From positions 46,872,001 to 46,936,000 of the forward strand of contig OZ024747.1 in assembly GCA_964016885.1 (NCBI GenBank): a DNA stretch of 64,000 bases. The letters run 5' to 3'. A program made the translations under genes and the position numbers. Positions 573 through 56,892 of this stretch are shown here, piece after piece. Each line of letters begins with the position of its first letter. Position 1 is the stretch's first letter. The stretch comes from Eledone cirrhosa (taxonomy: Eukaryota). The notes below the pieces were generated by a model that was not told where the DNA came from, did no database searches, and saw nothing but the letters and a program-made list of their open reading frames with translations.

Positions 573-623
573 AGTTTCAGAAGATCCCGTTAAGGGTGAA
601 AGCAGCGATTATTTGCTTAAACT
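573..623 (+). ncRNA. Type I hammerhead-like motif (U4A core) in a ~75-bp island between (TA)n tracts
   Basis: AGTTT-CAGAAGA-T-CCC gttaa GGG-T-GAAA-GCA..TGC-TT-AAACT; stems I, II and III pair. Confidence 0.55.
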
Positions 624-710
624 TTAATCTGTTATTTTAATAAATAAATATATATATATATATATATAAATATAATGCAAGATGTAGATATTAGTAGAAT
701 ATAATATAAG

Positions 711-930
711 GGCGCTGGATTGGCAGTATCGGTAGAACCTCGGACGCCATGCTTTGCAGCATAGAGCTTCGGCCCTTTATGATCTGACTTCAAATCCCGC
801 CGAGGATAACTTTGCCTTTCATCCTTACGGAGTCGATAAAATAAAGTACCAGTCACGTACTGGAGTCGATTTAATCGACTTTCTCCCACCCCCAAATTGC
901 AGGCCTTGTTCCTATACTAGAAATCATTAT
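711..930 (+). mobile_element. tRNA-derived SINE (octopus OK-like), long subfamily
   Basis: A box TGGCAGTATCGG, B-box-like ACTTCAAATCC, body GATAAAATAAAGTACCAGT shared with many copies in the window. Confidence 0.85.
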
Positions 931-1599
931 ATAGGAATATAGGAAAGGATTTTCAACGTTTGGAAATGTCGTTCCTATCTATTTATAAATCACCTTAAAG
1001 TATACTTCAAAATATAAGCCCATAGGTTATATCTTATATTAATATTACTACACTACGTCCACATATTTAATCATGTTGGTAAAAATAATAATAATGGTCC
1101 TAAATAAGTAAACACATAATAGAGATAGTAAGTTTGGAATAGAGTGGGGGAAAATGAACGAGAAGAATATCAAAGAGGAATTCAATTTGAAAGAAAAAGG
1201 ACCTACAAGTTTAAAGTTCAATGCAATTGACCCACGGCTCCAAAGTTCAACGATAAAAATAGTAGATTCATTCACAAACAAAAGGACAATTGACCAAAAA
1301 ACTTAAAAGAATTACTTTATATATTAAATTGACATCAACTACTTCCATGCTTGAAGTGAAATGTAACTAAGAAAAGAAACAATCAGAATAAAAAAAAAGG
1401 AAGAAAAGGAAATGAAAGGAAAATAAAGAGAAAGGAAAGCCGGAGGCTTATTATCTTCAGTCAGCTACTGATTTTCAACAAATGCAATGTAATTGTGTTA
1501 GTGACCAGGTCGCAGGAGAATGACGATTCATTTTGACAATTTATAGTTGATACTACGTATGAAGAAAAATGGAATGGAAGAGAATGGACAGCGGTCAGT

Positions 1600-1845
1600 T
1601 TCGACGATGACTGATCCAGTTGTTCGACGAACCGAACGGAATAACCTGCTCTTGATATTAACGTGTAAGTGGCTGAGCATTCCACAGACACCTGTAGACT
1701 TAACACAATTGCGACAAAGTTGATCCTATGAACTACACGCCCAGTCTAGCTGCTGGGGTTCGAAACAGTTTTCAATCTACCCAATTTTAATCAAAAGTCA
1801 TGCTTGAGGCTATAGATCGAACCCGGGACCTAATGATTACGAATA
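1600..1845 (-). mobile_element. Degraded tRNA-derived SINE of another family
   Basis: B box GGGTTCGATC on the minus strand near 1815-1825; body resembles common octopus SINE sequence (from memory). Confidence 0.4.
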
Positions 1846-2367
1846 TCATTTTTTGTATCATTTGAGCATGCTGCTTTCTGAGCACAGAGCTTATAAAGGT
1901 TTAAATGACATTGGAACTCAAAGTAAAGTGGTGCATTCTACTGAAGAACACAACCTGCTCTCTGAGCTATATATATATATATATATATATATCTGAACAT
2001 GCAACCCCGTTCTTCCCCCAACCCTTACTTTCACATACACACACACACACACACACACGCACACCTACACACACACACACCACCTTCAGCCCTCCCCGCT
2101 CGGACACCCCGTCTCCCTCTCCCCACTCCACCCGCCACCACCCCTACACACCCCACACCCTTCCACCACCTGTTTACCCCCCTTTTAATTTCAGTTTATT
2201 TTGATCATGCCTTTATTTTTAAATTTATCTCATTCCATGTATTTTCATAATGCTTTATTTTTATTTTTATCTTTATTTTTTATTTTTTCATTCGCACCGT
2301 TTCCTTTCGCTATATGTCTCTCCACCACTCCCCTACACACCCTTTGAACTCTGTTCCCACACACTTC

Positions 2368-2400
2368 TCACCTGAGGAAGGGCTTATGCCCGAAACGTCG
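2368..2400 (+). ncRNA. Minimal PLE-type hammerhead motif
   Basis: CTGAGGA-A-GGGC ttat GCCC-GAAA-CG-TC; palindromic ACGT stem III; stem I weak. Confidence 0.65.
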
Positions 2401-53699: not shown

Positions 53700-55828
53700 G
53701 TAGAAGGCTTGGTTAGCCTCAAGCAGCGCACAAGGGATGGCGAGGTAGTATGTCTACCCACGGATAAGTCTGGTAGGATGTCAATAGATAGCATGCCGAA
53801 CTACATCAAGGCTATGGAACCCCACATCACCAACACAAGCGAAATTGGACAGCAAATACATGATGGGAGAGAGAAAATCCTCAACGCTCACATGATGATG
53901 TGAACCGACATCCTAAAGCCAAGCAGACGCACTGCCAACAACTTCCATGCGTCTAACAATGGCATACCACCCTTGTATGGGCTCCGCAAAGACCACAAGA
54001 CAGTCGACGACCCGACAACAGGACCACCAACAAGACCCGTATGCGGAGCAAATATAGCTAGCAACTACAGGATCTCCTACTTCCTGTCAATGGTTATACG
54101 CCCCATAATCAAAATGCCTCCAGATGTATGTGACACTACAGAGGATCTCCTCAGCAGAATCAGTGAGTGCAACAAAAACAGGAACCTATCCAACTGCATA
54201 ATAGGCAGAATGGATGTGGTATCATTTTACTCATCCATAAACATTGATTTTGCTGTGGAAAAATGTGTGGAGATGATCATTGAGAGTGAGGTGGAGTTCG
54301 CGACGTCGACACAGACGAACTGGGCCTCCTACTTAGACTTACCTACGACACTGACTACCTAGACAGCCATGACCTTAGACGTTTCTGCCCCAGTAGACCC
54401 ATAAGAGGTAGACCCCCACCATAACCTCAATGGCTAAAAAGACTCCCATGGGAAGGTGGATTGGGTGGACCAAAGCTATACGGACCCCCCAAAACAATGA
54501 TCAGGTAAGAAAAATGGTCGCACATGCAATAGGACCTAGTATCAAAACTACCCTAAAGGGCCACATATTCAAGTTCAACGAGAAGATCTACACCGAAAAT
54601 GAGGGAGCAGCCATTGACGTCAGCATAGCTGGTGACGTTGCCAACCTTTTTATGGTATGGTGGGAAAGGAGACTTAAAGATCTCCTTAATGAGAGCTCCA
54701 TAGACCTCATCATGTACTCTCGTTACGTAGACGATATCAATATAGTTATAAGAACATTCCCACAAGAGAGCACTAACAAGTTGGATTTAGAACGTAGCAC
54801 AATGGAAAGCATCCAGCAGATAGCTAATTCCATACACCAGAGTAAAACTGTAACTATCGACTACCCTTTCAAACACCCTAACAATAGACTACCTTATTAG
54901 ACATGGAACTCTGGATTAACACTATAGACGAGAGAGCCCAAATTCTCCACTCACACTATGCTAAACCCATGGCCTCCAAATGCCTGATACTAAAAATTCA
55001 CCAATGTCCAGTAGTGCTAAGTTTAATATTCTGATCGCAGACTTGGTACGAGTGATGAAGAACGTGTCCCGCATGTGCGAGCCAACAGAAATGGAAAGAC
55101 ACATCCAACACTTCATCAACCGCATGCAGTTCTCTGGCTACAACCAAAGAGACAGAGTCAGAGTATACGAAGGAGCCACGGAGAAATATAAGGCATTCAT
55201 AGAACTGGACATGAAAGGAATTTGCCCATTATACAGGAGCAAATCATGGAATAGATTAGATAGGGCTAGACATAAGATAGGGAAAGCCACCTCATGGTAC
55301 AACAACCAGAGATACCAGAGTGTCATGTTTGTGGACGCTACCCCTGGAGGGAAATTAGCAAACCGGTGTAGAAAGGCCCTGAGAAAGACCCAATTAAAGA
55401 TTAAGGTGGTAGAAAAGCCAGGAACCACCATAAAATCCCTGATCAGCAAAACCTACACTTTTAAGAAAACCCACTGTACTAATAGGAAATGTATCATATG
55501 TAAGGTAAACCCCCGGATAAACTGTAAAACTAGAAACGTAGTCTATAGCATAAGATGTACGGAGAGTACTTGCAGAAACATGACAACAACATACATAGGC
55601 GAGACAGCTCGTAGCATAGGTGAACGGATAGACCAACACTGGGGGGAACTAAAAGGACGAAAAAACGGTTCACTACTATACGAACATGCCAGACAACAAC
55701 ACGACGGTAACATAGACAACATAGAAATTAGAATAATATCTAAACATAGAAATGACCCAACAGATAGGCTAATCAGAGAGGCCAGTGAAATAGAACTTAG
55801 AAGGCCTATGCTAAACAGAAAGAATTAA
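53700..55828 (+). pseudogene. PLE RT + GIY-YIG (second lineage, possibly Nematis-like), 5'-truncated and frameshifted
   Basis: PTDKSG; LYGLRKDHK; PPTRPVCGA; MDVVSFYSSI; YSRYVDDI; HYAKPMAS; VVYSIRC..YIGETARSIGERIDQH; RLIREA. Confidence 0.9.
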
Positions 55829-56144
55829 TGGAATAACAACAACACCCAAACAAACAACACTGACCTAAGAGAAGTATAAATAAATAACTAGATAAATAAA
55901 TAAATAAATAAATACATACACAAGCACAATAACAACAAACACATATAAACACACACTAGTAAAGATAGAATACATCAACTAATACACAGTCACCCAATCA
56001 CGAACACACATCAAACAAAACACTATACACACACGCAAACGCATGCGCAAAGAAGACAAAATAAAATAAACAAATAAATAAATATATAAACAGACTAAAT
56101 AAAGATGGCGTAGAAAATACAATGCAACGGGAGGAAACAATAGC

Positions 56145-56185
56145 ACCACTGACGATGTTGCAGATGTGCAACGAAAGAACTTTGA
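56145..56185 (+). ncRNA. Hammerhead core in the 3' repeat of the PLE
   Basis: CTGACGA-T-GTTGCA gatg TGCAAC-GAAA, ~320 nt after the stop codon; stems I and III weak. Confidence 0.6.
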
Positions 56186-56531
56186 TAGACTATAGATATG
56201 TGTTTGTGTCTATATTGTATCTGTATTATTTTTGACCGTTGGTCAGTCAATGGTAACATTGAGGACCGAATAAATTAGATTACCGATATAAAAGACACAG
56301 AAGCGAAAAGCGAAAACCAATCAAACAGTGAGTGTGTTCTGTTATTAATTCTGGCAATATTACACAAATATGACCCTCCCCAAGTATAACAATATATATA
56401 TATATATATATATATATATATATATATATATATATATATATATATAGGAGGTGAGTTTTGAAATGCGCATAATAAAATACTTGGAACTCTTTTAACCACC
56501 TTTTGATCTTATATTATATATATATATATAT

Positions 56532-56731
56532 ATAGGAACCAGTAAGACCCCGACAGCTGAGCTCAAGCCGTTTCGACGGACTGAATTATTCTAGTCCAGA
56601 ATTAGCCGTCGAAACGGCTTGAGCTCAGCTGTCGGGGTCTTACTGGTTCCTATTACCCACTCTACTACCTCAAGTATTGAGTACTTTGGTGCGTTATGGT
56701 CCACCTGGTTCCTTACCACATTTCCTTCGTT
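56532..56731 (+). mobile_element. Fold-back family A element
   Basis: Palindrome centred near 56587; (TA)n on both sides. Confidence 0.8.
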
Positions 56732-56801
56732 ATATATATATATATATATAAAATATTATAAAAAGGAATAATAGATACAATATACCTATTTTTTACTTTA
56801 G

Positions 56802-56892
56802 TCCCGACTGTACAGTTTCGCTGGTCACTATGCAAAAATGTTATATCATAGATATGTAACATTGTTGTGAGGTAAGCCAGCTTATCAAGAGA
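56802..56892 (-). ncRNA. Type I hammerhead with U3-A8 core (UUGAUAA)
   Basis: Reverse complement TCTC-TTGATAA-GCTGG..long hairpin..CCAGC-GAAA-CTG ta CAG-TC-GGGA. Confidence 0.8.

What the first reader, a model, noticed from the sequence alone, without database searches (positions are those of the whole stretch)
573..56892. Diverse hammerhead ribozymes in islands within (TA)n microsatellites
Seen: more than 15 type I hammerhead folds (573, 2368, 3168, 5167, 6229/6517, 16255/21894, 24214, 32340, 36862, 37729, 51020, 51567, 52221, 52598, 53486, 56145, 56802) with unrelated stem sequences, mostly in short ORF-less islands bounded by (TA)n. Known: PLE terminal repeats and animal retrozymes carry type I hammerheads, often with a palindromic stem III that works as a dimer. 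Inference: this genome hosts many (TA)n-associated ribozyme retroelement families, roughly one motif per 4 kb here, invisible to ORF-based annotation.
Basis: partly seen in the sequence, partly recalled or inferred. Interest (0 to 1): 0.82.

Follow-up and report, generated by a model that had tools for sequence, protein, structure and literature searches.

The report
Hammerheads in Penelope-like retroelement tails
About ten hammerhead-ribozyme folds in this animal DNA are real, and they are most likely the tail ends of known Penelope-like jumping genes that insert into TA repeats, so this is a dense but largely ordinary case, with two oddities: unusually long stem II arms, and an abundant fold-back repeat that carries only half of the motif.

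Summary
The hammerheads are real but overcounted. A full three-helix scan gives 9 strong type I folds against 0.1 in shuffles. One fold was missed (49426). (TA)n lies on the 3' side only. Three hammerhead families sit directly 3' of Penelope-like (PLE) coding remnants: two Hydra-type (linker and nuclease motifs; RWR and DKT in the longer one) and one Neptune/Nematis-type. Three islands are 5'-truncated copies of one Hydra element's tail. No tandem units, so not retrozymes. Craig 2021 already lists Hydra PLEs, including an octopus family, with 3' hammerheads and (TA)n targets; Cervera 2014 reports thousands of diverse solo PLE hammerheads per genome. Not found in my searches: 62-116-nt stem II inserts, and a high-copy fold-back family carrying only GAAA plus palindromic stem III. 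Cleavage is untested. The scan noted PLE-hammerhead links before on other DNA (358 notes).

The parts
32295..36440 (-). Decayed Hydra-clade Penelope-like element: ORF remnant about 36392-33750 (RWR, DKT, DIANYY, YRDD, CxCX5C linker, YVGAT, CxxC/CxH), 3' UTR, terminal hammerhead, then (TA)n; interrupted by a LINE-like 3' piece (35546-36016) and a SINE (33338-33498)
   Evidence: GIY-YIG look-alikes in Atlas; clade features from PMC8557442 section 11
32340..32400 (-). Family A hammerhead on the Hydra element; intact core at 32392, helix I lost (1 bp)
3170..3228 (-). Family A hammerhead, complete (helix I 10 bp, G10.1-C11.1), in a 5'-truncated island; cleavage site after 3180
36862..36926 (+). Family A hammerhead, complete; inverted 5'-truncated copy lying upstream of the Hydra ORF; stem III is (AT)4
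37729..37793 (-). Family A hammerhead, complete, 5'-truncated island
19594..20100 (-). Second Hydra-type PLE remnant: CxCX5C linker + GIY-YIG-type domain, 54 of 127 columns identical to the first; 5'-truncated
16197..22106 (.). Head-to-head 2-kb inverted repeat (16197-18211 / 20097-22106; 2001 matches, 6 mismatches) around the nuclease remnant; right arm ends at (TA)n
21894..22048 (+). Family E hammerhead: intact core at 21904, helix I 10 bp, stem II region 116 nt, palindromic stem III; hammerhead fold only 1.3 kcal/mol above MFE
16255..16409 (-). Mirror copy of the family E hammerhead, 3' of the nuclease remnant on the same strand
53740..55828 (+). Decayed Neptune/Nematis-type PLE ORF (DKS, DVVSFY, YVDD, CX2-5CxxC linker, YIGET); inverted internal piece at 53592-53683
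56142..56188 (+). Hammerhead 320 nt past that ORF's stop: intact core at 56149, 6-bp helix II, helix I eroded; (TA)n 243 nt on
51021..51096 (+). Complete hammerhead, core 51031, helix I 9-10 bp, A.G at 10.1/11.1
52221..52298 (+). Hammerhead, core 52229, 8-bp Watson-Crick helix I, weak helix II; tail shares a 14-nt motif with family B
49420..49462 (+).
51397..51743 (.). Family D fold-back; right arm holds a hammerhead at 51566-51678 (U4C, stem II region 82 nt), left arm has a 3-nt core deletion
31726..31881 (+). Decayed family D relative with compensatory changes in the loop-II hairpin (read by eye)
56802..56892 (-). Hammerhead with U3-A8 covariant core at 56888, stem II region 62 nt, perfect 10-nt palindromic stem III
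   Evidence: variant described in PMC4209133
573..623 (+). Hammerhead with U4A change in a 72-nt island between (TA)n runs
2370..2401 (+). Minimal PLE-type hammerhead (extra nt after A9, G10.1-C11.1, loopless stem III), helix I only 2 bp
5104..5229 (.). Family C fold-back of a decayed hammerhead (core 5162 on -, intact; core on + arm mutated; helix I eroded)
6132..6720 (.).
4870..5062 (.). Family B fold-back
22637..22821 (.). Family B fold-back
24366..24598 (.). Family B fold-back
56532..56730 (.). Family B fold-back
24214..24262 (-). Relic: intact core and stem III, 5' strand of helix II missing
   Evidence: read by eye
52598..52640 (-). Relic: helix II and palindromic stem III present, core deleted
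   Evidence: read by eye
53486..53515 (-). Relic: G8C core, helix II missing, at the end of the inverted piece beside the Neptune-type ORF
   Evidence: read by eye

Best explanation
The motifs are type I hammerhead folds that most likely belong to the 3' pseudo-LTR tails of several Penelope-like retroelement families (at least two Hydra-type and one Neptune/Nematis-type), left in (TA)n mainly as 5'-truncated or head-to-head fold-back copies. Shown here: the folds, their excess over chance, their one-sided position 60-250 nt upstream of (TA)n, the cis link of three families to PLE coding remnants, and the homology of three short islands to one Hydra element's tail. Inferred from published PLE biology: the GIY-YIG nuclease nicks (TA)n; the RT starts at an internal site just downstream of the ribozyme and often stops early, so the shortest inserts keep only the ribozyme and tail; a second, inverted cDNA gives the fold-backs, with one arm longer by a 'tail'. 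The ribozymes would cleave poorly as monomers and better as dimers through the palindromic stem III, or with help from the element's protein. Many copies are dead.
For: (9 vs 0.10; 10 vs 1.2). (3' polarity; 11 of 11 within 244 nt, 0 of 3000 simulations). (Hydra motifs RWR, DKT, CxCX5C, CxxC/CxH; CX2-5CxxC in the third ORF). (GIY-YIG look-alikes, cosine 0.94-0.96). (islands align to the element's last 150-220 nt at 70-82%). (family A helix II: 4 of 8 pairs with two-sided changes; 83% of cells paired vs 36-46% when slid). (7 of 15 stem III regions perfect palindromes, one mirror pair counted twice). (Hydra-1_Obim: hammerhead at 2403 of 2507 nt, (TA)n; by my count 14 of 26 listed Hydra hammerhead rows have U..U flanking helix II, as do 5 of 15 window sites). 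(family B has two 3' ends about 70 nt apart, both followed by (TA)n, like the two RT start sites in PMC11167929).
Against: Eight of 11 hammerhead families (573, 2368, 5167, 49426, 51020, 51567, 52221, 56802) and family B have no coding link inside the window, so their PLE parentage is inferred. Family A covariation is not significant against the tool's shuffle (36 of 500) with only 4 sequences. Pfam found nothing for any of 10 ORF pieces; the protein search gave one unnamed hit. No tree was built. Most folds are not the MFE (gap 1.3-14.7 kcal/mol), and only 3 of 13 fold z-scores were below -2. No upstream pseudo-LTR in direct orientation was found for either long element. No expression or cleavage data.
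Confidence: 0.82

Rival explanations
1. Several of the ORF-less families are independent non-autonomous elements (solo retrozyme-like units or PLE-mobilised SINE equivalents) that spread on their own, rather than one-off truncations of full PLEs.
For: Eight families lack a coding link in the window. Family B reaches about 19-20 thousand contig records per run with a sharp 5' edge (raw-read depth about 300 at 6543-6553, about 13,000 at 6587-6597), which suits a short unit amplifying as such. PMC3846280 passages show pLTRs alone suffice in trans; the bioRxiv 10.64898/2026.07.22.740005 abstract and passages derive retrozymes from PLE ends and report monomers.
Against: No tandem hammerhead unit in the window (none among the 150 of 157 TRF rows shown). 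Family A islands differ in 5' extent and match a coding element. Family B fold-back centres vary from locus to locus.
Confidence: 0.3
2. Family B is not hammerhead-derived; it is the end of another (TA)n-targeting element (a MITE, or an R4/Dong-type LINE or SINE tail), and GAAA + hairpin + GUC is coincidence.
For: No convincing core within 250 nt upstream in 10 of 10 arms. No two-sided change in stem III (0 of 6 pairs). TA-flanked fold-backs without any hammerhead also occur (32053, 36441, 51770, 57016). Dong-R4 families are listed for Octopus vulgaris; their TA targeting is recalled.
Against: A15.1-U16.1 invariant in 10 of 10 arms, with stem changes G-C to G-U. Asymmetric arms with two fixed 3' ends are a PLE signature. 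The tail shares 14 identical nt with the tail of hammerhead 52221 (0 of 100 shuffles) and a short motif with family C and coral Hydra-2_Amil tails (found post hoc; 4 non-B matches vs 1.9 expected).
Confidence: 0.3
3. The motifs are chance folds in AT-rich, repeat-rich DNA.
For: Low-score hits are at chance level (score >=6: 29 vs 10.5); Rfam finds none; relic calls rest on reading by eye.
Against: Top tier 9 vs 0.10; strand polarity to (TA)n; placement 3' of PLE ORFs; family structure.
Confidence: 0.03

Closest known systems
Hydra-clade Penelope-like elements (Craig et al. 2021, PMC8557442; section 11, passages, supplement parts 2 and 52 and searches seen), including Hydra-1_Obim of Octopus bimaculoides
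   Same: RWK-like motif, DKT, CxCX5C linker, CxxC/CxH around the nuclease E/N, C-terminal GIY-YIG, hammerhead about 100 nt from the 3' end, (TA)n target, U..U flanking helix II, 5'-truncated inverted copies (noted there for Penelope-13_HM).
   Different: Listed Hydra hammerheads have short helix II (3-7 bp, loops of about 3-10 nt); here stem II regions reach 62, 82 and 116 nt (the last on a Hydra-type element). 3' UTRs here are long (1.3 and 3.2 kb) against elements mostly under 3 kb. Window elements are decayed and differ in sequence from Hydra-1_Obim (by eye).
Minimal hammerheads of metazoan PLE pseudo-LTRs (Cervera and de la Pena 2014, PMC4209133; parts 1-2 of 4 read)
   Same: Type I, short palindromic helix III, dimer model, extra nucleotide after A9 (2372, 56149), U3-A8 core variant (56888), many heterogeneous families per genome, mostly solo motifs from truncated PLEs, opposite-strand pairs 100-700 bp apart.
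   Different: G10.1-C11.1 is highly conserved there but present at only 3-4 of 15 sites here; helix I is longer here (6-10 bp in the complete copies).
Poseidon PAc of Anolis, in vitro (Frangieh et al. 2024, PMC11167929; parts 1-2 of 4 read)
   Same: AT-rich target, two internal RT start sites that define a tail present at one end, both strands cut and extended, protein-assisted hammerhead.
   Different: Different clade; PAc's hammerhead overlaps the ORF start, which I could not show here; the family B tail is about 70-80 nt, not 30-40.
Animal non-LTR retrozymes (Cervera and de la Pena 2020, PMC7229834, passages and section 13; bioRxiv 10.64898/2026.07.22.740005, part 1 of 5 and passages)
   Same: ORF-less DNA with type I hammerheads, thought to be moved by PLEs.
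   Different: Defined as tandem 150-450-bp units with a hammerhead in each; none here.

Membership tests
Type I hammerhead ribozyme | CUGANGA and GAAA cores, NUH site, helices I-III in type I order | tested here: met
   9 sites at score >=11 vs 0.10 expected, 8 with an intact core; not met for relics and family B
Type I hammerhead ribozyme | Stem covariation across copies | tested here: inconclusive
   Family A: 4 of 8 helix II pairs with two-sided change, 36 of 500 shuffles as high, 4 sequences; family B: 0 of 6
Type I hammerhead ribozyme | Rfam hammerhead model above gathering score | tested here: not met
   0 hits; these variants depart from the models in helix II length and base pair
Type I hammerhead ribozyme | Self-cleavage | not testable with these tools
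   needs an assay; no RNA holder listed
Hydra-clade PLE | RWK motif and DKT in the N-terminal RT region | tested here: met
   RWR at 36286, DKT at 36030; region absent in the second, truncated element
Hydra-clade PLE | CxCX5C linker; CxxC and CxH around the nuclease E/N; no CCHH | tested here: met
   34154, 33854, 33771 and 20019, 19725, 19641; absence of CCHH judged by eye
Hydra-clade PLE | 3' hammerhead and insertion in (TA)n | tested here: met
   32392 then (TA)n at 95 nt; 21904 then (TA)n at 202 nt; helix I of 32392 is lost
Hydra-clade PLE | RT phylogeny inside the Hydra clade | not tested
   no tree built; reference proteins were seen only as cut text in a supplement
Neptune/Nematis PLE (53.7-55.8 kb) | RT followed by CX2-5CxxC linker and C-terminal GIY-YIG | tested here: met
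   the two clades were not told apart
PLE (structure) | Partial tandem with direct pseudo-LTRs | tested here: not met
   no same-strand second copy; Hydra-1_Obim is also listed with no pLTR
PLE (structure) | Inverted 5'-truncated copy, tail at one end only | tested here: met
   16197-22106, families B, C, D
Non-LTR retrozyme | Tandem 150-450-bp units, each with a hammerhead | tested here: not met
   (14 sites queried)
Non-LTR retrozyme | Expressed as circular RNA | not testable with these tools
   no RNA holder listed

The most novel reading that the evidence does not exclude
Family B is a high-copy non-autonomous PLE derivative that has dropped the catalytic half of its hammerhead but kept GAAA and a palindromic stem III as an RNA-RNA dimerisation handle. 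Two RNAs paired through it are copied by a dimeric PLE protein from both nicked strands of (TA)n, which yields the head-to-head fold-backs. That would give PLE hammerheads a structural role in transposition apart from cleavage. Beside it, the genome carries PLE hammerheads with 60-120-nt stem II inserts, which standard descriptors miss, at a density (about 140 per Mb here) above published counts.
Probability: 0.12. Interest if true: 0.65.

Novelty: new member of a known kind. Interest (0 to 1): 0.3.

Why it matters
As it stands it adds several hammerhead families to the known PLE catalogue and shows that descriptors with short stem II, or Rfam cut-offs, miss most of them (0 by Rfam, 2-3 by strict descriptors, 9 by a relaxed one). 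The role of PLE hammerheads is open: cleavage was dispensable in vitro for PAc (PMC11167929). An abundant natural element that keeps only the dimerising half, and a near-identical head-to-head pair with a 116-nt stem II, are ready test cases for cleavage versus RNA-pairing roles.

Tried and rejected
Whole genome: none held, so no genome-wide density or clustering. Rfam gathering: 0 hits; the E-value list was filled by microsatellite matches to miRNA models, 346 lower rows unseen. Strict descriptor found 3 and a minimal-type descriptor 2; both miss long stem II or a mismatched 10.1/11.1. Pfam: 0 families for 10 of 10 ORF pieces. Protein search, longer forms: 1 unnamed hit among 99 candidates. 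Family B pattern in metagenome contigs: 0. Sequencing runs: no RNA holder listed, no evidence either way. One search used a structure shifted by one column and is discarded; one search replaces it. A U3-A8-type core 100 and 62 nt upstream of family B's GAAA gave 4-bp helix I but no helix II base: rejected. Snap-back at a fixed loop II as the cause of family B fold-backs: centres vary from about 15 to 165 nt upstream of GAAA, so not supported as the sole rule. Assembly artefact for family B fold-backs: strand-switch joints recur in contigs and reads of other runs; not tested for the 2-kb repeat. Literature searches gave no paper on cephalopod hammerheads beyond PMC8557442 and none on long stem II PLE hammerheads or core-less fold-backs; the library lacks most subscription papers, I did not read Arkhipova 2017 or Lunse 2017 (recalled), and bioRxiv supplements are closed. 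Earlier-finding look-ups by place, sequence and narrower words gave nothing; one search gave only unrelated prokaryotic and viral notes.

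
Full report
Setting. The window is AT-rich animal DNA, about 20% microsatellite by my mask, with many SINE copies, LINE remnants and fold-back islands. No genome is held. By recall the SINE looks like octopus SINEs; I did not test the organism.

Observation. Rfam gives no hit at gathering score. A strict three-helix descriptor finds 3 sites against 0.13 in 30 shuffles; the half motif finds 10 against 1.2. U3-A8 is a published covariant core (PMC4209133). Seven of 15 stem III regions are perfect palindromes, counting one mirror pair twice. 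The hammerhead fold lies 1.3-14.7 kcal/mol above the MFE; 21904 (1.3), 51031 (2.4), 578 (2.8) and 56888 (3.3) are closest.

(TA)n. The association is one-sided. For the 9 scan hits, 8 have a (TA)5+ run within 300 nt on the 3' side (background 31%, p = 5e-4) against 4 on the 5' side. With one site per family, 11 of 11 lie within 244 nt (0 of 3000 simulations), the 5' side is unremarkable (13%), and 4 of 24 non-hammerhead CUGANGA controls are that close. This is what an element that ends 40-150 nt past the cleavage site and inserts in (TA)n would leave.

What carries them. Three-frame translation shows a decayed element on the minus strand from about 36392 to 33750 with RWR, DKT, DIANYY, YRDD, a CxCX5C linker, YVGAT and CxxC/CxH. 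These are the features given for Hydra-clade PLEs, which have canonical hammerheads and insert in (TA)n (PMC8557442 section 11). Its 3' end carries the 32392 hammerhead, then (TA)n. The islands at 36870, 37785 and 3218 align to its last 150-220 nt at 82, 82 and 70%, so they are 5'-truncated relatives; 36870 lies inverted just upstream of the ORF. In this family the core is invariant, and 4 of 8 helix II pairs show two-sided changes; 83% of cells pair against 36-46% when slid, but 36 of 500 shuffles reach the same count. A second Hydra-type nuclease remnant (20100-19594, minus; 54 of 127 columns identical to the first) is followed on its strand by the 16399 hammerhead, and an inverted 2-kb copy of its 3' part (2001 matches, 6 mismatches) gives 21904 and ends at (TA)n. 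A third remnant (53740-55828, plus) has DKS, YVDD, a CX2-5CxxC linker and YIGET, hence Neptune/Nematis type, with the 56149 hammerhead 320 nt past its stop. Atlas look-alikes of both nuclease types carry GIY-YIG in 13-35% of members; Pfam itself scored nothing, and I built no tree. The supplement of PMC8557442 lists Hydra-1_Obim from Octopus bimaculoides with (TA)n preference and a hammerhead at 2403 of 2507 nt; by my count 14 of its 26 Hydra hammerhead rows have U on both sides of helix II, as do 5 of 15 window sites (578, 5162, 32392, 49426, 51572). That points to Hydra-type parents for some unlinked islands (inference). No hammerhead unit has a same-strand neighbour of its family, so the retrozyme definition (PMC7229834 section 13) is not met.

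Fold-backs. Twelve short self-inverted islands and the 2-kb repeat were measured. Families C and D fold back within about 10 nt of the core. Family B (5 loci, 10 arms) holds GAAA, a 5-bp stem III with a palindromic loop, GUC and a tail, but no convincing core within 250 nt upstream in any arm. Stem III shows no two-sided change. The arms of one locus share private variants. Laid on 6400-6712, runs X1 and X3 (one sample) give 19,894 and 19,126 contig records, and RAD runs X13 and X14 give 23,487 and 23,754 reads. Raw depth rises about 40-fold between 6550 and 6590. Strand-switch joints recur (6579/6579 in 22 and 21 contigs). There are two 3' ends, at 6631 (3,759 and 3,581 reads) and near 6700, both followed by (TA)n. 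Depth is not copy number, and a 1-nt deletion in the window copy at 6578 sharpens the apparent edge. Inverted 5'-truncated copies with a tail at one end are known PLE features (PMC8557442 and PMC3846280 passages), and two internal RT start sites explain the tail in vitro (PMC11167929). Family B's tail shares 14 nt with the tail of hammerhead 52229 (0 of 100 shuffles) and a shorter, post hoc motif with family C and a coral Hydra tail. I put family B as PLE-derived at about 70%. Four other TA-flanked fold-backs show no hammerhead part.

Mechanism. Shown: folds, polarity, cis links, truncation, inversion. Inferred from the papers named: nicking of (TA)n by GIY-YIG, internal priming just past the ribozyme, early stops, a second inverted cDNA; weak monomer cleavage, better as dimer (PMC4209133) or with protein (PMC11167929, where cleavage was not needed for insertion). 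Cleavage and expression are untested; no RNA holder was listed.

Novelty. PMC4209133 already reports thousands of heterogeneous solo hammerheads per metazoan genome from truncated PLEs (about 9,000 in Xenopus tropicalis), including opposite-strand pairs, and PMC8557442 ties Hydra PLEs to hammerheads and (TA)n in an octopus. What my eight searches did not find: stem II regions of 62-116 nt on PLE hammerheads, and a high-copy core-less fold-back family. Verdict: new members of a known kind, interest 0.3.

Noticed in passing
window 16197-22106: The 99.7%-identical inverted arms include about 1.3 kb of degenerate (TA/CA)-like DNA inside the element's 3' UTR; if real, a recent PLE insertion copied microsatellite-like DNA to a new place. 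An assembly fold-back artefact was not excluded.
   Followed up: partly
window 36907-36918 and 32348-32359: In family A the palindromic stem III is itself (AT)4, the same repeat the element targets.
   Followed up: no
window 34150-34290: Asparagine-rich stretch between RT thumb and linker of the Hydra-type ORF, like the N-rich inserts described for rotifer Penelopes (PMC3846280 passages).
   Followed up: no
window 35546-36016 and 7007-7228: A LINE-like 3' piece (156-codon frame) is inserted just after the DKT motif of the Hydra ORF; 222 nt of it recur at 97% next to (TA)n at 7.0 kb.
   Followed up: no
window 9381-14136, 27396-28235, 30579-30804: Decayed non-LTR retrotransposon with a CCHC knuckle ORF and endonuclease/RT-like frames (named by eye; Pfam gave no hit), with diverged partial copies.
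   Followed up: no
window 702-930, 26939-27187, 30161-30338, 33338-33498, 40265-40904, 42704-43119, 45634-45816, 47682-47884, 53075-53484, 57479-57872: A SINE-like family with about 17 copies, often in tandem or inverted pairs.
   Followed up: no
window 32053-32281, 36441-36628, 51770-52066, 57016-57240, 14490-14579, 45169-45351: TA-flanked fold-backs without hammerhead parts; the last two look like Tc1/mariner MITEs by their ends (recalled).
   Followed up: partly
window 51095-51112, 56215-56235, 56765-56785: Tails of hammerheads 51031, 56149 and 56888 share an AT-rich 18-nt motif 10-40 nt past the cleavage site (0-1 of 100 shuffles), hinting at a common Neptune-type parent.
   Followed up: partly
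window 6050-6143: The last 21 nt of a family B tail are duplicated inside the flanking (TA)n.
   Followed up: no
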